From the IMG/VR virus record IMGVR_UViG_3300037184_000121, positions 32,001 to 96,000 of that record: 64,000 nucleotides of DNA; one strand, 5' to 3'. The position numbers were made by a program, and so were the translations under genes. Origin of the DNA: a virus. Positions 1,372 through 14,100 of the stretch are shown here, one piece after another (the stretch's first letter is position 1; the number at the start of each line of letters is the position of its first letter). The notes under the pieces were generated by a model. That model saw nothing but the letters and a program-made list of their open reading frames with translations, did not search any database and had not been told where the DNA came from.

Positions 1372-1851
1372 ATGTCAGATCTTTTGTTAACAACTATCCC
1401 AGTTTCAGGTCAGCCCCAGTATCCACCTCAACAGGGGAATCCTTCCCAATATTTTGGAGAGGGTACGAATGATTTGCAGATTGGGTCAAATAATGATTTT
1501 ACTTTGGTAAGTGGATTAGAGGAAACAGTTCAGGATGTTCAGAAGATTCTCTTAACAGAGCAGGGCACACCCATTACATTGTTCCCATTGTATGGCACTA
1601 CACTCCAATCCTTAATCGGCAACAGGATGAATCCAGCGACTATCAGTGGCACAGTGCAGCAGCAAATTACTCAAGCTCTACAGGTACTTTATCTGCTTAC
1701 ACAGAATAGAAGTAATCCAGCAGAAATTGTACAAACACTTTATTCGTTAAATGTATCGCTTCAGAGCGAAACAAATATAGCAGCATTATTAACCGTGATC
1801 GCCATGAATAATGAGGAGATCACAACTGGCATAAACGTAGGATCAATATAA
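1372..1851 (+). CDS. Baseplate wedge protein, gp25/GPW-like
   Basis: QDVQKILLTEQG...PLYGTTLQSLIG pattern; precedes the J-like gene. Confidence 0.75.
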   Translation: MSDLLLTTIPVSGQPQYPPQQGNPSQYFGEGTNDLQIGSNNDFTLVSGLEETVQDVQKILLTEQGTPITLFPLYGTTLQSLIGNRMNPATISGTVQQQITQALQVLYLLTQNRSNPAEIVQTLYSLNVSLQSETNIAALLTVIAMNNEEITTGINVGSI

Positions 1852-1852
1852 G

Positions 1853-2737
1853 ATGGCAAAAATTAAATTATCTGGAATATATAAAATTCAACATATAGAT
1901 GGAAAGATGTATGTTGGATCTGCTATTAATATTGATAAACGTTGGAAACTTCATTTGGCACAATTACATAGTAATAGACACCATTCAATCCTTCTTCAAA
2001 GAGCATGGAATAAATATGGTGAAGTTGCATTTAAATTTGAAGTATTAGAAATCGTTGACAATCCTACCAAAGAGTTATTGGAAGAAAGAGAACAATTTTG
2101 GATGGATTATTATCAATGCTATGATCCTGAAAAAGGATACAATGTAGCCATTAAGGCTGGAACAAATTTAGGTATTAAAAAGTCTAAAGAAGCACGTTTA
2201 AAATTAAGTCTTGCACGAAAAGGTTGTGTAGCATGGAATAAAGATTCTTGGAAAGATAAAGTATCTGAAGAAGAACTTGTTGCCTATTACCAAGCAGGAA
2301 ATTCTATGGGTGATTGTAAAATGAAATTTCATATTTCATTGGATTCCATTAGGTTGATTTTAAGACGAAATAATGTTATGCGTTCTCCATTAGAAGGACG
2401 AAGGCAAGAAAAATTTAGAAATAAGATAAGAATGACAGTTATTGGAAAACCTTCACCACGGAAAGGAATAAAAACAGAAAAAATAAGTTGGAATAATGGC
2501 ATTTGGAAGAGTAAAGCTTCTGAAGAAGAGATAGTTGAATTTTATAAATTAGGTAATTCAATACAAGATTGTCATGAACATTTTAACATATCTGTAGATA
2601 CTATTCGAATGGTTTTGAATAAACATAATGTTGTTCGTACACCACATGAAGGAATGATTTTAGAAAAAGCTCAGGGTAAAAGAATAAAAGCTTACAAAAA
2701 ATGGCGTAATACAAATAAAATTTTAGTTGAGGCATAA
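1853..2737 (+). CDS. GIY-YIG homing endonuclease (free-standing)
   Basis: GIYKI...MYVGS...R...LQRAWNKYG...FEVLE; NUMOD3-like segment and a duplicated C-terminal helical domain. Confidence 0.9.
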   Translation: MAKIKLSGIYKIQHIDGKMYVGSAINIDKRWKLHLAQLHSNRHHSILLQRAWNKYGEVAFKFEVLEIVDNPTKELLEEREQFWMDYYQCYDPEKGYNVAIKAGTNLGIKKSKEARLKLSLARKGCVAWNKDSWKDKVSEEELVAYYQAGNSMGDCKMKFHISLDSIRLILRRNNVMRSPLEGRRQEKFRNKIRMTVIGKPSPRKGIKTEKISWNNGIWKSKASEEEIVEFYKLGNSIQDCHEHFNISVDTIRMVLNKHNVVRTPHEGMILEKAQGKRIKAYKKWRNTNKILVEA

Positions 2738-2739
2738 TT

Positions 2740-4605
2740 ATGGCATTTCCCACATTCAGTCAAATCATTCAGCAAATGGTATCATTTTTACAGATATCGC
2801 GGCCAGATATCGCGTCTACACCTGGAACAGTAGTTTCGGACGTAATTATTTCAACTGTTGCAAATCAATTATCTGCTCAAAATGGTACTGATCCTTCTGT
2901 TTTTTCAAACTTGCAATATACACAGAATCTCCAAGCTTTTGTAGTGAATGCAGCTACAATTCTCCCTGCGGATATGGACAATATTGCACAGAATTATGGT
3001 ATGGTTAGAAATCCTGCAGTTCAGGCTACAGGATTTATCACGCTAAGGATTAGAAATTACACTACTTCTTCACCTATTATTACAGTTCCTTCTGGAATGA
3101 CAGTTACTACTCTATCTACCTCTAATACTCCCGCTGTTTCTTTTTCTACAACAGCCACAAAAACTTTTACGCCCTCTAATGCCCCCAGCTATTACAATCC
3201 TCAAAGTGGATTTTATGAACAAACGGTTGGAATCATAGCACAAACAGCGGGAAGCTTAGGAAATGTAAATTCAAATACCATCGTCTCCCTTGTTGGTCCT
3301 GGTCTTGGTATTGATAGTGTGACAAATATTGCAGCAACTAGTGGTGGAACGAATATTGAATCTAACGTTCAATTTGCTGCTCGTATTCAGATTAAGCTTG
3401 AAGGTAATAACGTAGGCACTCCTAATGGAATAATTTCCCTTATGGAGACAAATCCAAATGTTATTCAAGCTCTTATCGTTGGGCCTAATGATCCTAATCC
3501 TCCCTTGCGTAATCAATATGGGGGAAGTGTCAATGTCTATATTAGGGGGCAGATCCCAGTAACTGTATTGGCAGAACCTTTTACCTATTCTTCAACTGGA
3601 AGTCAGCAGTATGTTTTATTGAATCAGCCAGCACTATCAGTAGGTTCTGTCACTGGTATTGTTGGGGGTGTACCCTATACTTTTGTAGCTGGTACAGATT
3701 ATAAATTTGTATTAAATCCAAATCTTTTACTGGCAGGAAGTACTGAAGCAGCCAGCTATATCGTTTTTGGAAGATCCACTTATTTTAATATTGTAACAGT
3801 AGGTCTTCCTTTTACGGTTGCTACTGTAACAGATAGTGTACATTTAGTTGTTTCTTCTACTATAGGCATGACTGCTGGAGATACAATTGTACAAGGATCT
3901 AATACTACTACAATTACTATCATAACTGATGGGACCCATTTAGTCGTCGGATCTACAATTGGGTGGATAGGATCTGGAACTGCAGCTGCAGATACCTCTG
4001 TATCACAGTTAGTTGTTAATACAACAAGTGGAATGAATCCTGGAGATACAATTGTACAAGGAGCTTTTTTCACTACTGTTACTTCCGTTACTAATTCAAC
4101 TGTAGTTGTAGTGGCAAGTCTAACAGGTGCTGTAGCGGGATCAGCCTTCTTTGAGGGCTTCTTCCCTGATAATAATACAGTGGTCACAATTAATTATACA
4201 TATGATAGTTTGATTGCTACTCTCCAAGCTTTAATTAACAATAATTCTAATCATATTGTCGGCTCAGATATTCTTGTGGTGGAAGCTATTGAAGCAGTAA
4301 TTTCAGGTAATATGGGAATTTTTATTGTTCCAGGTTATGTTCCCGCCACAGTTCAAACTAATGTATCTACAGCACTTTCTACATACATAGATGCCCTTGG
4401 ATTAGGAGCAAACATTGTATTGAGTGAATTAGTTGCAATCGCGCAAGATGTACCAGGAGTAGCAGAGGTTGATCTTACGAGTCTCGTTTTGCAAAGTACA
4501 GAAGGTGTTGTGACGACTACTATACCTCCTGGGCAACAAATTTCAGTCGGTTCGGAGGCTTACCCAGTTACACCAATTGGAATCACTATAACAGTAGAAG
4601 GATAA
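2740..4605 (+). CDS. Baseplate J-like protein
   Basis: MDNIAQNYGMVRNPAVQATG, AGSLGNV...TI, SGGTNIES...RI, GSVNVYI and C-terminal DVPGVAEV motifs. Confidence 0.85.
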   Translation: MAFPTFSQIIQQMVSFLQISRPDIASTPGTVVSDVIISTVANQLSAQNGTDPSVFSNLQYTQNLQAFVVNAATILPADMDNIAQNYGMVRNPAVQATGFITLRIRNYTTSSPIITVPSGMTVTTLSTSNTPAVSFSTTATKTFTPSNAPSYYNPQSGFYEQTVGIIAQTAGSLGNVNSNTIVSLVGPGLGIDSVTNIAATSGGTNIESNVQFAARIQIKLEGNNVGTPNGIISLMETNPNVIQALIVGPNDPNPPLRNQYGGSVNVYIRGQIPVTVLAEPFTYSSTGSQQYVLLNQPALSVGSVTGIVGGVPYTFVAGTDYKFVLNPNLLLAGSTEAASYIVFGRSTYFNIVTVGLPFTVATVTDSVHLVVSSTIGMTAGDTIVQGSNTTTITIITDGTHLVVGSTIGWIGSGTAAADTSVSQLVVNTTSGMNPGDTIVQGAFFTTVTSVTNSTVVVVASLTGAVAGSAFFEGFFPDNNTVVTINYTYDSLIATLQALINNNSNHIVGSDILVVEAIEAVISGNMGIFIVPGYVPATVQTNVSTALSTYIDALGLGANIVLSELVAIAQDVPGVAEVDLTSLVLQSTEGVVTTTIPPGQQISVGSEAYPVTPIGITITVEG

Positions 4606-4610
4606 AATTT

Positions 4611-6950
4611 ATGAGCATAGCATATAAGTCAAAAGTAAATGAAAGAGTAACAGGATCTCCAATTAGTTTAGAGCCACATACTGTTGGTATTGTGGGAGTG
4701 TTTACAGTTGTTCCGAATGTAATTCGTTTAGTTGAAGTTCCTCAAGGCCCAGGTCCAGCTGTTTCCATTTATGGATATACTGAAACTCTAACACCTTCTC
4801 CCTCTGGCACTCAATTTTATGTTGACTACCCAACTGGAGTTATTACATTTAACGCCTCTCAAAATGGTCATTCAGTTTTAGTTTCCTATACGGGATTAGG
4901 GTCAGAAATTGCAGCAGAAGATATTAATGAACTTCAAATTCCAGTTGGCATTGCCTTAAATGCAGATGGATCATTGTCTGCTGGTATTGTTACTACTACT
5001 AGTCTTTCTGGTTCGCTGGTTCTTCCTTTCACTACTCTTCAGACATTAAATAATTCTATTGTTCCTGTAACAAATGGATCTGGGTATTTAATTTCTTCAG
5101 CTACTACCGCAACTGAATTAGGTTATCTATCTGGTGCCGCTTCTAATATTCAAGCACAATTAAATGCTCTTTCTTCTGGTACAATCACTTCTGTAGTTGG
5201 AACAACGCATGAAATTATTGCTTCTACTTCTTTTGGAGTTGTCACATTATCTACTCCACAAGCTATTGATACAACAAGTAGCCCAACTTTTTATTCACTT
5301 ACACTTACAAATCCATTGACAGTTGGGAATGGTGGAACTGGAGATAGTTCTCATACTGCTTACGCAGTACTTACTGGAGGTACTACTTCTACTGGAGCAC
5401 TTCAATCTGTTTCAGGGGTAGGAACCTCTGGTCAAGTTCTCACAAGTAATGGAGCTAGTACCCTCCCAACTTGGCAAACTTTGATTACTCCTTCTGGGAT
5501 TACAGCTTTGACAGGTGATGTTACTACTAGTGTTAGTCCTTCGAATCCTTATCTTAATACAGCATCTACTTATGCTGTTCTAGGTGAAACAGCAGTTACT
5601 AATACGGGAAGCACTGTTCTTATTGGAGATTTAGGTATTTCTCCTAATAATGCAACATCAATTACTGGCTTCCCTCCAGGGACTTATTCAGGTACAGAAA
5701 ATGCAGGTAACTCAGCTGCAGCGACTGCCCTTGCTGATGCAACATCAGCTGCTGCCACTTTAACAGCAATGGGTCCTGGTACAGACCTATCTTCTACTGA
5801 TCTAGGTGGTCATACTTGTGTTCCAGGCGTTTATCACACATCTTCAACAGCAACATGGTCTGCAGGTAACTTAACCTTAAATGGTGCAGGTACATATATA
5901 TTCCTAATTGGTTCAAGCTTAACAATGCCAGCCAATGCAACCGTAGTATTGGAAGGTGGAGCAATCGCTGATAACGTTTACTTCGTAACGGTGTCAACCT
6001 TTACCTTTGGTGCAAATTGTACTGTTAATGGAACTATTTTAGCTGGTACTTCTATTACTTTTGCTTCTAATAGTGTGTTGAATGGTCGTGCTCTTTGTTA
6101 TGGTCCTTCTGGAACAACTGTTGCATTCCCAAGTGCAGCTACTGTAACTGTTCCTCCAGGTTCTGGTGGAGTAGAAGTTGCCACATTAGCTACAGTAAAT
6201 AGTGATGTTGGATCATTTACTTGGACTAATTTTACTGTAAATGCAAAAGGTTTAATTACTGCTGCTTCTACTAATCCAACTCCTGTTACTTCTATCTATG
6301 CTGATAGTAATCCTCTTTTGACAGGTTCAGTTCAACTAGTTTCTGGCACAAATGTCACTCTTTCCCAGGTGGGTCAGGTGATCACCATTAATGCTACTTC
6401 TGGTGGGTCAGGCACAGTTAATAGTGGGACGGTACATCAACTTGCTTATTACTCAGCTACTGGAACGGCTGTTAGTGGCAGTTCCATATTATCTCAAGAT
6501 GTTAATGGTCTAATAATTACAAGTCCAGCACCTTATGTTCGAAGTGCTGCAGGTCTTGACATACTTGCTGCTGCAAATTTATATCTTACTGCTGGTGGAA
6601 CTATCTTTTTATATGGGAACGTAATAGATGCTGCAACTCATAAAATTATTAATCTAGGTAATGGATCAGCTGCCCAGGATGCTGCTGCATTTGGTCAAAT
6701 TACTGCAGCTAATGCAGGTGCTTTGGCCTTATCTGGTGGTACATTGATTGGATCTTTAGGAATTGGGGAATCTCCAGTAGCATCTGCTGTTTTAGATGTT
6801 GCTTCTACAACTCAAGGTTTCTTACCACCAAGAATGACTACAACCCAAATGAATGCAATTAGTAGTCCTGCTGAGGGTTTAGAGATTTATGCAACTGATA
6901 CACATCAATGGATGGGATATAATGGTTCTGCTTGGGTCATATTAGGCTAA
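4611..6950 (+). CDS. Tail fibre-like protein with ice-binding-like (DUF3494) domain
   Basis: Fibre motifs (TVNAKGLITAAS, KIINLGNG..AQDAA, GFLPPRMTT); internal domain ~5548-6150: YAVLG.TAVTNTG.TVLIGDLGISP..ITGFPPG...PGVY...ADNVYF...GTILAGTSITF...LNGRAL. Confidence 0.8.
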   Translation: MSIAYKSKVNERVTGSPISLEPHTVGIVGVFTVVPNVIRLVEVPQGPGPAVSIYGYTETLTPSPSGTQFYVDYPTGVITFNASQNGHSVLVSYTGLGSEIAAEDINELQIPVGIALNADGSLSAGIVTTTSLSGSLVLPFTTLQTLNNSIVPVTNGSGYLISSATTATELGYLSGAASNIQAQLNALSSGTITSVVGTTHEIIASTSFGVVTLSTPQAIDTTSSPTFYSLTLTNPLTVGNGGTGDSSHTAYAVLTGGTTSTGALQSVSGVGTSGQVLTSNGASTLPTWQTLITPSGITALTGDVTTSVSPSNPYLNTASTYAVLGETAVTNTGSTVLIGDLGISPNNATSITGFPPGTYSGTENAGNSAAATALADATSAAATLTAMGPGTDLSSTDLGGHTCVPGVYHTSSTATWSAGNLTLNGAGTYIFLIGSSLTMPANATVVLEGGAIADNVYFVTVSTFTFGANCTVNGTILAGTSITFASNSVLNGRALCYGPSGTTVAFPSAATVTVPPGSGGVEVATLATVNSDVGSFTWTNFTVNAKGLITAASTNPTPVTSIYADSNPLLTGSVQLVSGTNVTLSQVGQVITINATSGGSGTVNSGTVHQLAYYSATGTAVSGSSILSQDVNGLIITSPAPYVRSAAGLDILAAANLYLTAGGTIFLYGNVIDAATHKIINLGNGSAAQDAAAFGQITAANAGALALSGGTLIGSLGIGESPVASAVLDVASTTQGFLPPRMTTTQMNAISSPAEGLEIYATDTHQWMGYNGSAWVILG

Positions 6951-6965
6951 TAAAGGTAAATAACA

Positions 6966-9170
6966 ATGGCATTTTACGGCGCGGGAATTTTCTATGGATC
7001 GGGAAGTTTTTACATCGGGGCAACCACAACGGCTGCTCAGGGTATTCCTATTGATTTACGTTTTTATAGAACGTCACAGGATGGTGTTTATGTTTTTTGG
7101 TGGGGTTTTGATCCCACATTCATTACTCCTGCTTTAGCTTCCGCTGGATTTGATTTACAATTGGATACTGTTCCAACATTTAATTCTCCAAATTTAGTTA
7201 CGTATACTCAACTCACAGCTATTACTTTTCAAAATGGTAATGTTAGAAAAGGATTTGCTGTTCCAGTCGCTGCCCGTATTAATGATACAGTTCAAACTTG
7301 GTATGCACGAGTTAGGACTCATACTCCTTCTTTTATTTCAGATTGGTCAGCTACCTTAACTTGGATTATTCCTCAGAGTGTTCAGCAATCTTCTGCAGAA
7401 GCTTTGATGGAATCTTTGCCTGATTATCATGTATATGGTAAAGGAGATCTTTTAAAACCTGTTTCGCAGCGTAATACTAACTTATGGCAAGTTGAGAATA
7501 TGTATGGAAATCAATTAGACCAAGTATTTTATGCCAATTTTCTTACTCAGACAGATAATTATGTTGATATGTGTGTAGATGAAAATTTAGCTGAAAATTT
7601 TGGTGTGATGTTCAATTTCCCTAAACCAAATAGTATGCAGTACGTAGATTATCGTTGGATTTTGATGAATTTATATTTGGCTTCTTTAGTTGGTGGGACG
7701 AATGAAGCTGTTATTTTAACAGTTCAATCGTTTACGGGTGTTCCACCTGTTATTACTAATATACGAGACTTGAATAATTTCGTTTTAACTACAACTCAAG
7801 ATGCTCCAGAAACTCAGACACTTAATACAACTTCAATTATAAATATTATAGATGCTACTCATCTAGAAGTCGGAAGTACAATTGGTTGGGTTACTGGTTC
7901 TGCTTTAGATACAACAGTTTCCATTCCTTTTACTGTCACAGATGTGGAAGATAGCACCCATTTTATTGTTTCCTCAACAGTAGGTATGACAAATGGTGAT
8001 ACAATTAAGGAATCTGTATTTTATACTTCTTCTCCTTTTATTGATAGTACTTTAGTTGTCGAGAATATAACTCCAACTGCTTCACCTTCTCTTCTTGGTA
8101 CAGCATCTACCTTTGCTGTTTTGGGAGATACTGCAGTCACTAATATAGGCAGTACTATTTTAACAGGAGATTTAGGTAATGTGGCTGTATCTTCCATTAC
8201 AGGATTTCCTCCAGGTACATTTACAGGCATATTGCATAGTGGAGATTCTGCAGCAATACAAGCACATACAGATGCAACCTCAGCAGCAATTGCCTTGAAA
8301 GCACTTGTTCCTTTTACAAATATTTCATCAACGGATTTGGGGGGTGCTACACTTACTCCAGGTAATTATCATGCTTCCTCAACAGGAACATGGTCTGCTG
8401 GGCCTCTTACACTCAATGGTGCAGGACAATATGTATTTGTATTTGGAACTGCTCTTACTATGCCAGCTAATGCTACTGTAGTTTTAACAGGAGGTGCAAC
8501 AGCTGACAATGTTTACTTTGTAACTGGTACAACATTTACATTTGGAGCAGACTGTATTGTTAATGGCACTATCTTAGCTGGAACATCCATTACTTTTGCT
8601 TCTAACAGTGTTTTGAATGGTAGAGCATTAACGTATGGACCCTCTGGAACAACTGTGACATTCCCAAGTGCAGGTACAATAGTTGTTCCATCAGGTGGTA
8701 TTACTCCAGGTCTTATCGTTCCTCCCAGCACGTATACAACAAATGGGGCATTGGGATATTGGACTATGCTTGTCCCAACAACAAATACATTACAAGCTAT
8801 ATTTGATGTAGGCAATCCTATTAAAATATTCAATGCCTTACAAGGGGCTACTGCATTAACAGGTAATGTAACGTTTACAAATGGAAGTGCTACAGTTACA
8901 GGTGGTGGAACTTCCTTTTTATCTCAGTTATCTATTGGAGATCAGATTACAGATCCTACTGGGATTTATTTAGGTACTATAAAATTAATTACAGATAATA
9001 CACATGCCATACTGCTTGAACCTTGGGCTGGTCCAACGGAAGTCATTACAGCTTATAAATTGCAATATACGGAAGCTCAGTTGCCTGTTCCTGTTCTTTG
9101 GGATTCGGCTACATTAGCTTCTGGAGTACTTATTACAATTCTAAATCCTGGAGACTTTCCACTTTACTAA
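6966..9170 (+). CDS. Baseplate wedge/tail protein I-like with ice-binding-like (DUF3494) domain
   Basis: N-terminal LAENFG..F...YRWIL...GGT..AV...V..FTG pattern; second DUF3494-like domain ~8085-8690. Confidence 0.7.
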   Translation: MAFYGAGIFYGSGSFYIGATTTAAQGIPIDLRFYRTSQDGVYVFWWGFDPTFITPALASAGFDLQLDTVPTFNSPNLVTYTQLTAITFQNGNVRKGFAVPVAARINDTVQTWYARVRTHTPSFISDWSATLTWIIPQSVQQSSAEALMESLPDYHVYGKGDLLKPVSQRNTNLWQVENMYGNQLDQVFYANFLTQTDNYVDMCVDENLAENFGVMFNFPKPNSMQYVDYRWILMNLYLASLVGGTNEAVILTVQSFTGVPPVITNIRDLNNFVLTTTQDAPETQTLNTTSIINIIDATHLEVGSTIGWVTGSALDTTVSIPFTVTDVEDSTHFIVSSTVGMTNGDTIKESVFYTSSPFIDSTLVVENITPTASPSLLGTASTFAVLGDTAVTNIGSTILTGDLGNVAVSSITGFPPGTFTGILHSGDSAAIQAHTDATSAAIALKALVPFTNISSTDLGGATLTPGNYHASSTGTWSAGPLTLNGAGQYVFVFGTALTMPANATVVLTGGATADNVYFVTGTTFTFGADCIVNGTILAGTSITFASNSVLNGRALTYGPSGTTVTFPSAGTIVVPSGGITPGLIVPPSTYTTNGALGYWTMLVPTTNTLQAIFDVGNPIKIFNALQGATALTGNVTFTNGSATVTGGGTSFLSQLSIGDQITDPTGIYLGTIKLITDNTHAILLEPWAGPTEVITAYKLQYTEAQLPVPVLWDSATLASGVLITILNPGDFPLY

Positions 9171-10601: not shown

Positions 10602-12515
10602 ATGAGTTCAGTGATTTTTAGTAACGCCCAGCGTATCATAGCCGCAATTTTTGATTGGCTACAAACCAGTAGTCAGGGCAGAATTGCAGATTTTATTACA
10701 GACACATTTTCAGCAGGTATTGATAATGCTACTACAGCAGGAGAAGGATTCCTTGTTGTTCCTGGTACAAATAATACCTCGCTCACTCCCTCCGTGAATG
10801 TTACTCTTGGGGGCATAGCTTATGATCTATTGGCGAATAGAATTTATATTTCTCCAACGGATACTACTCTTTATAATCCAGCAAATATAACGACTACAAC
10901 AAATGATGGTCTTGGGAATTTATTAGCTACCCCCCAGTCTACAGGTGTTGTTAATATCCCAGTAACCCAAGGTTCCCAAAATTATCTTTGGATTGATTAT
11001 CTTCCTACCATTAATACAGCTGCTTTTACAACTAATGAAATTACAAATGCTAAGATTTTCTATGAACAGACAGATGGGTACAACATTCAAGTAACTACTG
11101 TAAATGTTCCTCCAGATGCTAATTCTATTTTCTTAGCTTCCGTAAATATGACTGGTGGAGGTGCAGTAGCAAGTTCTAATATTTCACAAATTGGACGTAC
11201 TTACATGAGTATAGATCCTAAAATGGTTCCGATAACCACACCGTTTAATAATGGATCAAATCGTACTCCTGCTTATACTCAAAATACTACCTATACACTT
11301 GATGCTCATATTAAATCGATTGGTACAGGAACGGGAATAAGTCCCACGAATCCGCATAATATGTCCCTAGGGGATTTAGGAATATCTGCTATTGATACTG
11401 TAGTTGGGCGTAGCCAGATTGAAGGTAATAATAATGTTATTATCACTACAAATCCTAATCCTGTTGCTTCTGCTATGGCTTCTTATATTAATGGTGTAAC
11501 TTACGGTAGTGATACCCTTAATGTTTATGCTCTTTCAACTTACGGAGGTATTCCTGAATATGCCATTGTAAATGGTGCAGCTTATTCAGGGACCCAAATA
11601 TTTGGTGTGGCTCTTACAAATGCAACTGTGCCATTCCCCGCTGTTTCTGGTTTTTATTATGTCTATTGGGATTCTGTTGCTCAAGCTTTTGGGGTATCAA
11701 CATCTATTGCCGTTACAACGGATGTTACGAAGCTTTTACTTGCCTCTGTTACTTATACGTATGTGGGATCTACATTTCCACCAGATCACAATATTCTTTC
11801 TGGTTTAACAGATCTTAGACTTATTGGAGGTACAAATAGTTTATTGCAACGTTGGACTACAGTAGCAAGACCTGTAAATCCAGTAGTAGGGGAATTCGGT
11901 TTTAATACTACTCTTGGAATATTAGAATATTGGGATGGAACTGCTTGGCAACAGGTTGTTGAAGCTTCTGCAAATGGAAATGTTCCATCTGGAGCTATGT
12001 TAGATTTTGCGGGAACTTCTGCAAGTATACCAACTGGTTATCTTCCTTGTGATGGTTCAGTTGTATCTCAAGCAACTTATGCTAATTTATTCGCCGTCAT
12101 TAATACAATATGGAATACAGGTGGAGAAGGGGTCGGAAATTTTAGACTTCCTAATTTTCAAAGAAGTGTTGCTGTCGGATCTGGTGGAACGGAAACTACT
12201 GAATTGGGGAGTACCGTTGGTAGCGTTGGGGGAGTGGAATCTGAAACACATACTCATACAGAAAACCCCCATATCCACAATCAGGCAAATAATGGGATAC
12301 TTAATGTAAATATAGGTACTAATATAGGTATTTATGATATTTCAGGAAATCCACCATCTCCATCCTCAGACATGGGGGCTACAAATACTGCGGGGGGTAA
12401 TCCATGTTATCGTTTAACAGCTGGAACTACAACTCAAAGTAATTCTGGTATGAGTAGTTTCACCAGTAATAATTTTCAACCTTCAGCTGTAGTTACCAAG
12501 ATTATAAAATACTAA
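10602..12515 (+). CDS. Tail fibre protein with tail-collar domain
   Basis: VPSGAMLDFAG...PTGYLPCDGS.VS..TYANLF.VI...FRLPN collar motif. Confidence 0.85.
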   Translation: MSSVIFSNAQRIIAAIFDWLQTSSQGRIADFITDTFSAGIDNATTAGEGFLVVPGTNNTSLTPSVNVTLGGIAYDLLANRIYISPTDTTLYNPANITTTTNDGLGNLLATPQSTGVVNIPVTQGSQNYLWIDYLPTINTAAFTTNEITNAKIFYEQTDGYNIQVTTVNVPPDANSIFLASVNMTGGGAVASSNISQIGRTYMSIDPKMVPITTPFNNGSNRTPAYTQNTTYTLDAHIKSIGTGTGISPTNPHNMSLGDLGISAIDTVVGRSQIEGNNNVIITTNPNPVASAMASYINGVTYGSDTLNVYALSTYGGIPEYAIVNGAAYSGTQIFGVALTNATVPFPAVSGFYYVYWDSVAQAFGVSTSIAVTTDVTKLLLASVTYTYVGSTFPPDHNILSGLTDLRLIGGTNSLLQRWTTVARPVNPVVGEFGFNTTLGILEYWDGTAWQQVVEASANGNVPSGAMLDFAGTSASIPTGYLPCDGSVVSQATYANLFAVINTIWNTGGEGVGNFRLPNFQRSVAVGSGGTETTELGSTVGSVGGVESETHTHTENPHIHNQANNGILNVNIGTNIGIYDISGNPPSPSSDMGATNTAGGNPCYRLTAGTTTQSNSGMSSFTSNNFQPSAVVTKIIKY

Positions 12516-12815: not shown

Positions 12816-13592
12816 ATGCATAAATTTACCTGGAAACCAGATCTACCTGATTTTCGTGATCTTACGTATAAGGCTATCCATAAGTACAGCCTTTATGAAC
12901 TTCCAGTAGCAGCAGATTTACGTTCTAGTTGTTCTCCTGTTGAAAATCAGGATCAGCTAGGCTCTTGCACAAGTTTCGCTTTGGCTGGAGCCCTTGAATT
13001 CTTGGAAGAGAAAGCTCTTTCAACAAAAACTGCTTCTGCTGAGATTCTTGCTTCTACCTATACTCCTTTTTCTCACCTTTTCATTTATTATAATGAACGT
13101 GATATGGAAGGTGACGTAAATGAGGATGGAGGTGGGCAGCTTCGAGATGGAATTAAGACATTGGCTACCCTTGGAGGCTGTTCAGAGCTTACTTGGCCCT
13201 ATGATGAGTCTAAAGTGTTTGATAAGCCCTCCGATGCATCTTATCAGGAAGCTCTTCAGCATAAAATTACTTCTTACCTTAGTTTGAATTCTATATCTGA
13301 TATGAAGCATTGTCTTTCAGATGGATTTCCCTTTGCTTTTGGATTTACGGTCTACGACTCCTTTGAGTCTGAAGAAACAGCTCGAACGGGTATTCTGAAG
13401 ATGCCTACTTATACAGATAGTTGTGTGGGTGGACATGCAGTGCTGGCAGTTGGCTACAGTGATGCTGAGCAAATGTTCATCGTTCGTAATTCCTGGGGTT
13501 CAGGCTGGGGCTTACAGGGATACTTCAAGATGCCCTACCAATATATCATGAATGCAAATCTAGCCTCGGATTTCTGGACGATTCGTAAGTAA
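12816..13592 (+). CDS. Papain-family (C1) cysteine peptidase
   Basis: QDQLGSCTSFA (Gln, catalytic Cys), GGHAVLAVGY (His), RNSWG..WG..GYF (Asn). Confidence 0.92.
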   Translation: MHKFTWKPDLPDFRDLTYKAIHKYSLYELPVAADLRSSCSPVENQDQLGSCTSFALAGALEFLEEKALSTKTASAEILASTYTPFSHLFIYYNERDMEGDVNEDGGGQLRDGIKTLATLGGCSELTWPYDESKVFDKPSDASYQEALQHKITSYLSLNSISDMKHCLSDGFPFAFGFTVYDSFESEETARTGILKMPTYTDSCVGGHAVLAVGYSDAEQMFIVRNSWGSGWGLQGYFKMPYQYIMNANLASDFWTIRK

Positions 13593-13602
13593 AGGAGATA
13601 AT

Positions 13603-14100
13603 ATGGACTGGGGAAATTTAATAAATCAAATTATCAGTGTTGTCTCACCTACCAATGTTCCAGTAGCGCAGCCTGACGATAATTTCGACGGGACTGAGCT
13701 GGAACTTGTAAGGGATACGTATTCTGAATTTTCTACACAGGGAAACCTTTCTATTGATGAGTCTTGGGAATGTTTTACTATAGAATGTCCTAAAGAATCC
13801 TACGAAGGTTCCCATGTGTGTATTCCTTGTGGCACATATGAGATTGAATTGGTTGATAGCCCTAAGCATGGACCAAATACCCCTCAGTTAGAAGAGGTTC
13901 CTGGTAGATCTCTTATTCAGATGCATAGTTCAAATTATGCAATTAATCCAGAAACTAAGCAAGTATTTTTATTAGGATGTATTGCCCCAGGCACTCAAAA
14001 AGATCCTAATGTAGTTTACAATTCTAAAGTAGCTATGGCTGCTGTTATGCAAAAGATAGATTGGGATAAACCAGTCAGAATAACAATTTCCGAGTCATAA
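13603..14100 (+). CDS. DUF5675-like protein (candidate cell-wall enzyme)
   Basis: STQGNL...FTIE.P...CIP.GTY...SPKHG...VPGRS.I.MH..N...GCI. Confidence 0.7.
   Translation: MDWGNLINQIISVVSPTNVPVAQPDDNFDGTELELVRDTYSEFSTQGNLSIDESWECFTIECPKESYEGSHVCIPCGTYEIELVDSPKHGPNTPQLEEVPGRSLIQMHSSNYAINPETKQVFLLGCIAPGTQKDPNVVYNSKVAMAAVMQKIDWDKPVRITISES

What the first reader, a model, noticed from the sequence alone, without database searches (positions are those of the whole stretch)
5548..8690. Two ice-binding-like (DUF3494) domains built into adjacent virion proteins
Seen: two closely similar ~200-aa domains (~5548-6150 and ~8085-8690), with NGTILAGTSITFASNSVLNGRAL identical in both, inserted in a fibre-like and a baseplate-like protein. 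Established: the pattern (F/Y)AVL...VTN.G.T...GDLG...ITGFPPG...PG.Y...NVY(F)...GTILA..SIT.....LNGRAL is characteristic of the DUF3494/IBP-1 beta-solenoid of microbial ice-binding proteins and ice adhesins. Inference: the virion displays multiple copies and may attach to ice, resist freeze damage, or use the fold to bind a receptor or surface. I know these domains mainly from cellular organisms.
Basis: partly seen in the sequence, partly recalled or inferred. Interest (0 to 1): 0.78.

Follow-up and report, generated by a model that had tools for sequence, protein, structure and literature searches.

The report
Phage tail studded with ice-binding-fold domains
An uncultured phage of roughly 190 kb carries complete copies of the microbial "ice-binding protein" fold as optional cassettes in two tail genes in this window and in its tail sheath just upstream, which may let the virus particle grip ice or another surface, although no binding has been measured.

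Summary
P0001 (window 4611-6950) and P0002 (6966-9170) each hold a full PF11999/DUF3494 domain (133 and 117 bits; cut-off 28.7). The two domains are 69% identical. The modelled P0002 domain superposes on the Antarctic fungal ice-binding protein AnpIBP (Z 31.8, 1.5 A).

A third, more canonical copy lies 8.9 kb upstream of the window in the tail sheath. That protein's fold matches more than 20 solved sheaths at Z 18-24.

All three are optional cassettes. Relatives 79-99% identical in the flanks lack exactly the ~210 residues.

The two window copies belong to a virus-only DUF3494 lineage that moves between sheath, fibre, wedge-like and small proteins. They are under purifying selection (dN/dS 0.21). 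On the face homologous to the proven ice-binding site, 17 of 18 outward positions are Thr or Ser.

Display on the tail is well supported (~0.9). Ice binding is plausible but untested (~0.45). General adhesion is the main rival, because PF11999 is abundant in all soils and I could not get habitat data.

The literature I searched notes PF11999 in viruses only as a putative host-protecting gene. This scan already reached the same reading on related phage genomes, so this is a further case, not a first.

The parts
4611..6950 (+). P0001, a 779-aa baseplate-attached fibre-like protein that carries DUF3494 cassette 1
   Evidence: ORF. It lies directly after Baseplate_J. Precomputed Pfam hits are PF26696 (PTL_trimer), PF11999 and PF27067 (YomF_N). 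The N-terminus matches phrog_11315. The C-terminal ~55 aa are shared with proteins of other phages.
5526..6179 (+). DUF3494 cassette 1 (P0001 aa 306-523; Pfam envelope aa 323-496)
   Evidence: PF11999 at 133.3 bits. Best PDB sequence match is EfcIBP 6EIO, E 2e-26. Relative P0072 is 99% identical over aa 1-305 and 83% over aa 524-779 but lacks exactly this stretch. Putative B-face rungs are TSIT(349), STATWS(412), SSLTMP(435), STFTFG(462), TSITFA(480) and TTVAFP(502).
6966..9170 (+). P0002, a 734-aa tail or baseplate-periphery protein: FN3-like N-terminus, helical domain, Thr-rich module, DUF3494 cassette 2, and a C-terminal domain shared with tail-fibre or distal-tail proteins
   Evidence: ORF. 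AF2 model m55ab596f43c7 has pLDDT 79. The FN3-like part, aa 20-138, scores Z ~10. The C-terminus, aa 633-700, matches phrog_9922, phrog_1980 and PDB 23gd_B. The wedge role rests on a weak lead only: Atlas scores of 0.77 to Tail_P2_I and 0.75 to T4 gp7.
7809..8066 (+). Second optional module in P0002 (aa 282-367): two Thr-rich units with the motif D-x-T-H-(L/F)-x-V-x-S-T
   Evidence: It is absent from P0192-type homologues, which skip aa 282-570. The same module occurs in the baseplate J protein (aa ~353-444) and in a 470-aa protein upstream of the window.
8073..8699 (+). DUF3494 cassette 2 (P0002 aa 370-578; Pfam envelope aa 385-556)
   Evidence: PF11999 at 116.8 bits. The model matches AnpIBP 7BWX at Z 31.8, rmsd 1.5 A, 198 of 203 residues, and Foldseek TMt is 0.89. 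Relative P0190 aligns to aa 1-369 and aa 579-734 and lacks exactly this stretch. Column-4 Thr ladder: T412, T475, T498, T525, T543, T565.
1372..1851 (+). gp25-like sheath initiator or baseplate wedge subunit (context)
   Evidence: phrog_120 at E 7e-10. PF10934 Sheath_initiator scores 32.8 bits, just under its cut-off of 32.9.
2740..4605 (+). Baseplate J-like (gp6-like) wedge protein (context); it also carries the Thr-rich module
   Evidence: PF04865 at 60.2 bits. phrog_6 at E 7e-28. Module shown.
10602..12515 (+). Tail fibre with a phage tail-collar domain (context: end of the fibre module)
   Evidence: PF07484 at 49 bits. Tail-collar and tail-fibre PHROGs also match.

Best explanation
The window belongs to a large uncultured contractile-tailed phage. 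The record is 107.6 kb and about 56% complete; a complete relative is 192 kb.

Two adjacent late genes just after the baseplate J gene each carry an in-frame, self-folding cassette of about 210 residues with the IBP-1/DUF3494 beta-solenoid fold. These genes are a YomF/gp10-type fibre (P0001) and a peripheral tail protein (P0002). The tail sheath gene upstream carries a third cassette.

The cassettes are optional display modules. They sit between folded parts of the carrier proteins, they are present or absent among near-identical phages, they move between carrier genes, and they are kept by purifying selection. Because the sheath is a six-fold helical polymer, the tail would display on the order of a hundred or more copies (inferred).

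Most likely mechanism (inferred, about 0.45): the flat Thr/Ser-rich face that binds ice in proven DUF3494 proteins is exposed on the tail. It lets the particle adsorb to ice surfaces and/or locally restrain ice recrystallisation. That would keep virions in the liquid veins where hosts concentrate and protect the contraction machinery through freeze-thaw cycles in soil or peat.

Shown here: the domains, the fold, the carriers' identity as tail proteins (firm for the sheath, by context for the other two), optionality, mobility and selection. Not shown: any binding, the ligand, the habitat or virion incorporation.
For: Domains and fold:
- PF11999 is far above its cut-off in all three carriers.
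- Modelled domains superpose on AnpIBP at Z 34.8, rmsd 1.1 A, 202/203 residues for the sheath, and Z 31.8, rmsd 1.5 A for P0002.

Carriers:
- The sheath protein matches more than 20 solved contractile sheaths (phage 812, R2 pyocin, T4 gp18, P1, AFP, PVC) at Z 18-24, across residues 23-768 on both sides of the insert.
- Its distant homologue P0069 passes PF17482 Phage_sheath_1C.
- P0001 and P0002 follow the gp25-like and Baseplate_J genes and carry fibre and tail modules.

Optionality:
- Empty-site relatives exist for all three carriers: L012/P0003 for the sheath, P0072 for P0001, 99% identical in the flank, and P0190 for P0002.
- Only about 17 of 68 sheath homologues and 11 of about 90 full-length P0002 homologues carry PF11999.

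Mobility:
- The P0001/P0002-type cassettes form a virus-only clade of 26 sequences (SH-aLRT 100). Copies from sheath, fibre, P0002-like and small proteins are intermingled in it.

Selection:
- dN/dS is 0.21 at dS ~1.07.
- The identical 23-aa stretch has 12 of 69 base differences.

Ice-binding-site homology, using the AnpIBP B-face rungs and the S153Y/T156Y loss-of-function data (PMC7277481):
- The sheath cassette has SSATLG identical to AnpIBP S153-G158.
- In each window cassette, 17 of 18 outward positions in rung columns 1, 2 and 4 are Thr/Ser, against a 27-28% background (hypergeometric p ~6e-10).
- Thr/Ser is kept at 88% of these positions across the clade, with an almost invariant six-rung Thr column.

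Recurrence:
- Complete or large relatives hold 4-5 copies each.
- Two unrelated complete phages of 162-166 kb hold 5 each.
- An unrelated contig fuses the domain to a Baseplate_J protein.
Against:
- PF11999 is among the most abundant Pfam families in soils of all kinds (PMC11237643).
- The nearest cellular relatives, at 48% identity or less, come from ordinary soil bacteria as well as peat and permafrost MAGs. The fold alone therefore does not imply ice.
- DUF3494 proteins are also discussed as substrate-binding or adhesion proteins (PMC12337378).
- The window cassettes belong to a virus-only lineage on a long stem (1.04 changes per site), which allows a changed ligand.
- B-face outward positions are not more conserved than other polar positions (Mann-Whitney p 0.39).
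- The rung mapping is by sequence and structure alignment. I could not inspect coordinates, and one rung (P0002 aa 472-477) is not a DSSP strand in the model.
- The cassettes are dispensable between near-identical strains.
Confidence: 0.5

Rival explanations
1. General adhesion module. The beta-solenoid serves as a weakly sticky decoration, like the Ig-like, FN3 or carbohydrate-binding domains on other phage structural proteins. It would bind polysaccharide, humic or mineral surfaces or host envelope glycans, which keeps virions near hosts. Ice is not the ligand.
For: - The behaviour is typical of accessory decoration domains: optional among close relatives, placed on several structural proteins and shuffled between them.
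- A second optional module, Thr-rich, travels through the same proteins.
- PF11999 is abundant in all soils and is treated as an adhesive domain class in fibrillar adhesins (PMC8286594).
- DUF3494 is described as ice-binding and substrate-binding (PMC12337378).
- The cassettes form a virus-only lineage on a long stem.
- An earlier follow-up of this scan on a related genome preferred this reading (e1-5676700).
Against: - The face homologous to the ice-binding site is not eroded. It is regular: 17 of 18 positions are Thr/Ser, with a near-invariant Thr column.
- No DUF3494 domain has a demonstrated non-ice ligand in the papers I read.
- The sheath-type cassette is 46-48% identical to proven ice binders and keeps their tested residues.
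Confidence: 0.33
2. Host receptor-binding domain. The cassette is the specificity determinant of the fibre and wedge proteins and sets host range.
For: Two carriers lie in the fibre and baseplate module. Cassette swapping is how phages change receptor-binding tips.
Against: - The same domain sits in the sheath, which does not contact the receptor.
- Cassettes are 65-97% identical across different phages and carriers and are under purifying selection, unlike fast-evolving receptor-binding tips.
- In P0001 and P0002 the cassette is internal, and conserved C-terminal domains follow it.
- A separate tail-collar fibre is encoded downstream.
Confidence: 0.07
3. No external ligand. The cassette is either a structural brace that stiffens or spaces tail parts, or a selfish in-frame insertion spread by recombination. 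In the second case it is kept foldable only so that it does not damage its carrier.
For: - It is dispensable between 99%-identical strains.
- Free-standing GIY-YIG homing endonuclease genes lie beside both cassette-bearing gene clusters and could drive local gene conversion.
- The whole cassette is evenly conserved, not just one face.
Against: - dN/dS of 0.21 over dS ~1 implies long-term retention.
- Independent phage lineages hold 4-5 copies each.
- The cassette contains no intein or endonuclease motif; PF11999 is the only family found in it.
- Outward-facing Thr/Ser are kept at 88%, which folding alone would not require.
Confidence: 0.07
4. Auxiliary metabolic gene: a soluble ice-binding protein made during infection to cryoprotect the host. 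This is how PF11999 on Arctic viral contigs has been read.
For: Rahlff et al. 2024 (PMC11515562) annotated three PF11999 genes on Arctic vOTUs this way. Relatives of this phage also encode small 314-341-aa proteins that are mostly the domain.
Against: In this genome all three copies are internal domains of 734-779-aa structural proteins in the tail operon, flanked on both sides by sheath or fibre sequence. There is no free-standing copy in the 107.6 kb available.
Confidence: 0.03

Closest known systems
AnpIBP (Antarctomyces psychrotrophicus ice-binding protein, PDB 7BWX/7BWY) and EfcIBP (PDB 6EIO)
   Same: Same Pfam family and same fold. The sheath cassette is 46-48% identical (Z 34.8, rmsd 1.1 A). 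The P0002 cassette is 35-37% identical (Z 31.8, rmsd 1.5 A). The B-face rung pattern is kept, including the residues whose Tyr substitution abolishes AnpIBP activity.
   Different: Those are free, secreted single-domain proteins of cold-adapted cells with measured thermal hysteresis. Here the domain has no signal peptide, is spliced into the middle of phage tail proteins, and has no measured activity. The window cassettes belong to a separate virus-only lineage.
Multidomain DUF3494 proteins of bacteria: IBPv (PDB 5UYT, tandem domains) and SfIBP_1 (PDB 6BG8, DUF3494 with Ig-like domains)
   Same: DUF3494 is used as one module of a larger surface-exposed protein, sometimes in two copies. Relatives of P0001 and P0002 also hold two copies.
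   Different: The carriers there are cell-surface or secreted proteins, not virion parts.
Accessory decoration domains on phage structural proteins (Ig-like, FN3 and carbohydrate-binding modules; T4 Hoc). This comparison is from general knowledge, not tested here.
   Same: Optional, surface-exposed, shuffled among structural proteins, and dispensable for assembly. The same behaviour is shown here by the empty-site relatives and the cassette tree.
   Different: The fold is an IBP-1 beta-solenoid of ~210 aa rather than a ~100-aa beta-sandwich. One insertion site is the contractile sheath itself.
PF11999 genes on Arctic viral contigs, read as auxiliary metabolic genes (Rahlff et al. 2024, PMC11515562)
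   Same: Same Pfam family on viral contigs.
   Different: That paper reads them as host-cryoprotecting genes and does not analyse structural context. Here the domains are parts of sheath, fibre and tail proteins.
MpIBP ice adhesin of Marinomonas primoryensis (from general knowledge and as cited in PMC7277481)
   Same: A possible functional analogy: an ice-binding module held on a long surface structure, used to stay at the ice and not to lower the freezing point.
   Different: The ice-binding fold is unrelated (an RTX-type beta-solenoid), and the structure is cellular and not viral.

Membership tests
DUF3494 / IBP-1 (Pfam PF11999 Ice_binding) | Match to the family HMM above the curated gathering score | tested here: met
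   P0001 scores 133.3 bits, P0002 116.8 bits and the sheath 196.6 bits, against a cut-off of 28.7.
DUF3494 / IBP-1 (Pfam PF11999 Ice_binding) | Beta-solenoid of about six coils with a long alpha-helix packed alongside | tested here: met
   The AF2 models superpose on 7BWX at Z 31.8, rmsd 1.5 A, 198/203 residues (P0002), and on 7BWY at Z 34.8, rmsd 1.1 A, 202/203 residues (sheath). DSSP shows helix 428-445 inside the strand ladder. These are predicted models, not experimental structures.
DUF3494 / IBP-1 (Pfam PF11999 Ice_binding) | [quoted passage not shown] | tested here: met
   I mapped the AnpIBP rungs (PMC7277481) by alignment. In P0001 and P0002, 17 of 18 positions in columns 1, 2 and 4 are Thr/Ser; in the sheath, 14 of 18. 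The figure is 88% across the viral clade. Flatness and exposure could not be inspected in 3D, and one rung is not a strand in the model.
DUF3494 / IBP-1 (Pfam PF11999 Ice_binding) | Measured ice binding (thermal hysteresis, recrystallisation inhibition, ice shaping) | not testable with these tools
   This needs expressed protein. Family membership does not guarantee activity.
DUF3494 / IBP-1 (Pfam PF11999 Ice_binding) | Origin in a cold or freezing habitat | tested here: inconclusive
Cellular relatives include SPRUCE peat and Stordalen palsa/fen MAGs but also ordinary soil bacteria.
Contractile tail sheath (carrier of the third copy) | Sheath fold with conserved N- and C-terminal core, plus gene order sheath then tube | tested here: met
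   Z 18-24 to phage 812, R2 pyocin, T4 gp18, P1, AFP, PVC and other sheaths over model residues 23-768. Foldseek E is 4.8e-8 to 8q1i_I. Homologue P0069 (39% identical) passes PF17482 at 35.9 bits against a cut-off of 26.9. A 176-aa ORF follows the gene. No direct Pfam or PHROG hit on the protein itself.
Phage tail fibre or baseplate protein (carriers P0001 and P0002) | Homology to known tail-fibre or baseplate modules, and a position in the baseplate operon | tested here: inconclusive
   Position after the gp25-like and Baseplate_J genes. P0001 has precomputed PF26696 PTL_trimer and PF27067 YomF_N; these models are absent from the local Pfam copy, so I could not re-score them. The P0002 C-terminus matches phrog_9922, phrog_1980 and PDB 23gd_B at E 5e-7 to 7.5e-8. 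For the N-terminal two thirds of P0002 there is only an FN3-like fold and Atlas leads below 0.8.
Optional decoration or display module of phage structural proteins | Present or absent among close orthologues with intact flanks; found on several structural proteins | tested here: met
   Empty-site orthologues exist for all three carriers. There are four or more carrier types in the clade, and the cassette tree does not follow carrier type.

The most novel reading that the evidence does not exclude
These are virus particles that bind ice. A lineage of large soil and peat phages has domesticated the IBP-1 fold into a virus-specific cassette and plated the contractile tail with it, on the sheath, a baseplate fibre and a peripheral tail protein. 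On this reading the particle itself adheres to ice and survives freeze-thaw. That would be the first structural, as opposed to metabolic, cold adaptation of a virion, and a natural polyvalent ice-binding nanorod.
Probability: 0.4. Interest if true: 0.85.

Novelty: new variant of a known kind. Interest (0 to 1): 0.72.

Why it matters
Ice-binding proteins are known as secreted or cell-surface products of cold-adapted cells. Accessory binding domains on phage particles are known mostly as small Ig-like or sugar-binding folds. Here the two ideas meet. A full ice-binding-fold domain sits in the repeating subunit of a contractile sheath and in two more tail proteins, as an optional and mobile cassette with its own virus-only lineage.

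If the cassettes bind ice, this explains how phages persist and find hosts in seasonally frozen soil and peat. It would change how PF11999 hits on viral contigs are read: as structural parts, not as a metabolic aid to the host. It would also offer a naturally polyvalent ice-binding scaffold for cryopreservation research.

If they bind something else, these would be, as far as the papers I read go, the first DUF3494 domains with a demonstrated non-ice ligand. That bears on the function of a family that is among the most abundant in soil metagenomes.

The question is directly testable, because natural pairs of cassette-plus and empty-site alleles exist at up to 99% flank identity.

Tried and rejected
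- **Cultured phages.** tblastn of P0001 and of the sheath cassette against 50,697 GenBank phage records gave no hit to the DUF3494 part. Megablast of 25 kb of the window gave none either. No cultured relative was found, though the low-complexity filter may hide weak hits.
- **Naming the sheath by sequence.** Pfam and PHROGs on the sheath protein and on its domain-less orthologue gave no sheath family. A PDB profile search returned only ice-binding proteins. The identification came from structure and from a distant homologue.
- **Recent gene conversion as the cause of the identical 23-aa stretch.** Rejected: 12 of 69 bases differ.
- **Excess conservation of the putative ice face.** Not found (p 0.39).
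- **Baseplate role of P0002.** Foldseek and the wide VIA search returned only ice-binding proteins and FN3 domains. Atlas leads to Tail_P2_I and T4 gp7 scored below 0.8. The role stays unresolved.
- **PF26696 and PF27067.** They are not in the local Pfam library. Their names come from the Atlas output.
- **Habitat.**
  - Cluster look-up gave no sample names.
  - IMG sample numbers appear in no searchable paper.
  - My recollection that several of these numbers are peat or permafrost metagenomes is unverified, and I did not use it as evidence.
- **Literature.** Searches for DUF3494 with phage, for ice-binding with bacteriophage and tail, for ice-binding with viral and permafrost, and for PF11999 found only the auxiliary-metabolic-gene reading.
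- **Not done.** I did not attempt host prediction. I did not use complex prediction or the search of protein representatives.

Full report
**Setting.** The window is G000:C1:32001-96000 of an IMG/VR virus record of 107,602 bp, about 56% complete and linear. GC is about 0.38, and all sizeable ORFs are on the + strand. The first 14 kb hold the distal part of a contractile-tail operon:
- a gp25-like sheath initiator at 1372-1851;
- a GIY-YIG homing endonuclease at 1853-2737;
- a Baseplate_J protein at 2740-4605;
- P0001 at 4611-6950 and P0002 at 6966-9170;
- two small unknown ORFs;
- a tail-collar fibre at 10602-12515;
- a papain-like peptidase and a DUF5675 protein.

**Observation.** P0001 aa 323-496 matches Pfam PF11999 (Ice_binding) at 133.3 bits, and P0002 aa 385-556 matches at 116.8 bits. 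The cut-off is 28.7. Sequence searches of the PDB return only DUF3494 ice-binding proteins, with EfcIBP 6EIO and AnpIBP 7BWX best.

**A third copy in the sheath.** A search of the whole record found a stronger, full-length PF11999 match (196.6 bits) in a 768-aa protein at G000:C1:23093-25399, which is 6.6-8.9 kb upstream of the window.
- No family library names this protein.
- Its AF2 model (pLDDT 75, 42-sequence alignment) matches AnpIBP over residues 161-367 at Z 34.8, rmsd 1.1 A.
- The rest of the model, residues 23-768 on both sides of the insert, matches the sheaths of phage 812, R2 pyocin, T4, P1, AFP, PVC and others at Z 18-24.
- A 39%-identical homologue passes PF17482, Phage_sheath_1C.

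This carrier is therefore the tail sheath, and the ice-binding fold is an insertion in the repeating unit of the tail.

**The cassettes are optional.**
- *Sheath.* The orthologue in L012 is 81% identical but lacks the ~200-residue insert. Only about 17 of 68 homologues carry PF11999.
- *P0001.* Protein P0072 is 99% identical over aa 1-305 and 83% over aa 524-779, and lacks exactly aa 306-523.
- *P0002.* P0190 aligns to aa 1-369 and aa 579-734 and lacks aa 370-578. Shorter homologues also lack aa 282-369.

These natural empty sites define the cassette edges and show recent gain or loss.

**The cassettes are mobile and selected.** A scan of IMG/VR with two peptide patterns found 66 loci on about 50 viral contigs.
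- In the related clade of roughly 180-190 kb phages, the domain occurs in sheath, P0001-like fibre and P0002-like proteins, sometimes twice. It also occurs in small 314-341-aa proteins.
- A complete 192,085-bp relative with terminal repeats has 4 copies. Others have 4-5.
- Two unrelated complete phages of 162-166 kb have 5 each, some inside proteins of 2,600-2,800 aa.
- One unrelated contig fuses the domain to a Baseplate_J protein.
- In a quick maximum-likelihood tree of 107 viral and cellular domains, the P0001/P0002-type cassettes form a virus-only clade of 26 sequences (SH-aLRT 100, stem 1.04). Copies from different carrier types are intermingled inside it.
- The sheath-type cassette sits among cellular sequences. 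This is a quick tree, not the finished careful search.
- Cellular relatives in 185,579 species genomes reach only 48% identity. They come from Acidobacteriota (including SPRUCE peat and Stordalen palsa/fen MAGs and Danish soil MAGs), Actinomycetota, Lysobacterales, Planctomycetota and Streptomyces.
- Between the two window cassettes, dN/dS is 0.21 with dS ~1.07. The identical 23-aa stretch differs at 12 of 69 bases, so the identity is due to selection, not copying.

**Is the ice-binding site kept?** The AnpIBP paper defines the site as the B-face. [quoted passage not shown] By alignment:
- The sheath cassette has TSIT, SSAQLT, STLTTA, SSATLG (identical to AnpIBP S153-G158), ASITAD and GAVTLD.
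- P0001 has TSIT, STATWS, SSLTMP, STFTFG, TSITFA and TTVAFP.
- P0002 has SSIT, STGTWS, TALTMP, TTFTFG, TSITFA and TTVTFP.

In each window cassette, 17 of 18 positions in outward columns 1, 2 and 4 are Thr/Ser, against a 27-28% background (p ~6e-10). Across the viral clade the figure is 88%, and the column-4 Thr is almost invariant over six rungs. This resembles the T-A/G-X-T/N and T-X-T repeats that the same paper describes for FfIBP and EfcIBP.

There are three caveats. I could not inspect coordinates. One rung is not a strand in the model. These positions are no more conserved than other polar positions (p 0.39).

**Carriers in the window.**
- *P0001* has the precomputed families PTL_trimer and YomF_N and a C-terminal ~55-aa module shared with other phages. 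I read it as a baseplate-attached fibre.
- *P0002* (model pLDDT 79) has an FN3-like domain at aa 20-138 and then a helical domain. After these come a tandem Thr-rich module and the cassette. Its C-terminal domain matches tail-fibre or distal-tail families. Its exact place in the baseplate is unresolved.

**Interpretation.** The anatomy is well supported: optional, mobile, selected IBP-1 cassettes displayed on tail proteins. Because the sheath is a polymer, it implies a polyvalent display.

The ligand is open. Ice binding is the most specific reading and fits the kept Thr/Ser face. However, PF11999 is one of the most abundant families in soils generally (PMC11237643), and DUF3494 is also discussed as a substrate-binding or adhesive domain. 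The window cassettes sit on a long virus-only branch, and habitat data could not be obtained.

I put ice binding at about 0.45 and general adhesion at about 0.33. Receptor binding, a ligand-free structural or selfish role, and a soluble host-protecting role share the rest.

**Prior knowledge.** The searchable literature mentions PF11999 on viral contigs only as a putative auxiliary gene for host cryoprotection in three Arctic vOTUs (PMC11515562). No paper I found describes it as a virion part. Within this scan the same feature was already noted on this genome from an overlapping window. It was also followed up on two related genomes, with the same reading. This report therefore adds an independent case, not a first discovery.

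Noticed in passing
window 7809-8066 (P0002 aa 282-367); window 2740-4605 (baseplate J aa ~353-444); G000:C1:20770-22179: A second optional module, Thr-rich, with the motif D-x-T-H-(L/F/I)-x-V-x-S-T. It occurs twice in P0002 and also in the baseplate J protein and in a 470-aa protein with a He_PIG Ig-like domain. Sheaths of relatives L009 and L010 carry it as an extra ~60-aa insert. It behaves like another shuffled decoration cassette, and its fold is unknown.
   Followed up: partly
window 1853-2737 and G000:C1:22184-22939 (L001:73-828): Free-standing GIY-YIG homing endonuclease genes sit next to both cassette-bearing clusters. One lies between the gp25-like and baseplate J genes, the other directly upstream of the sheath gene. 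They could promote local recombination that spreads cassettes.
   Followed up: no
window 12816-13592 and 13603-14100: A papain-family (Peptidase_C1) cysteine protease gene and a DUF5675 gene lie directly after the tail-fibre module. This is unusual cargo at the end of a tail operon. It might be a lysis or depolymerase function.
   Followed up: no
G000:C1:19048-20187 (L005:1048-2187): A Kelch-repeat beta-propeller protein (four or more Kelch motifs, E 2e-25) lies in the structural region upstream of the sheath, next to a protein with a putative Ig (He_PIG) domain. These are further candidate surface-binding decorations.
   Followed up: no
L047:444-7448, L049:918-8666, L051:906-8672; records G004 and G005: Unrelated large phages (162-166 kb, complete) carry DUF3494 inside giant proteins of 2,300-2,800 aa, sometimes twice. 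One of these proteins also has a Baseplate_J domain. A giant-virus MAG contig (L068) encodes a 543-aa DUF3494 protein.
   Followed up: partly
L030:4890-5831 and similar loci (L025, L028-L031, L034-L037, L040, L041, L044): Relatives encode small proteins of about 314 aa that are little more than a short N-terminal leader plus the virus-type DUF3494 cassette. No counterpart is present in the 107.6 kb available for this genome, which is only ~56% complete.
   Followed up: partly
protein P0037 (sheath of a 178,899-bp relative): This sheath carries the P0001/P0002-type cassette instead of the canonical sheath-type one, preceded by ~190 aa of two tandem Ala/Thr-rich repeats. The sheath insertion site accepts different cargo.
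   Followed up: no
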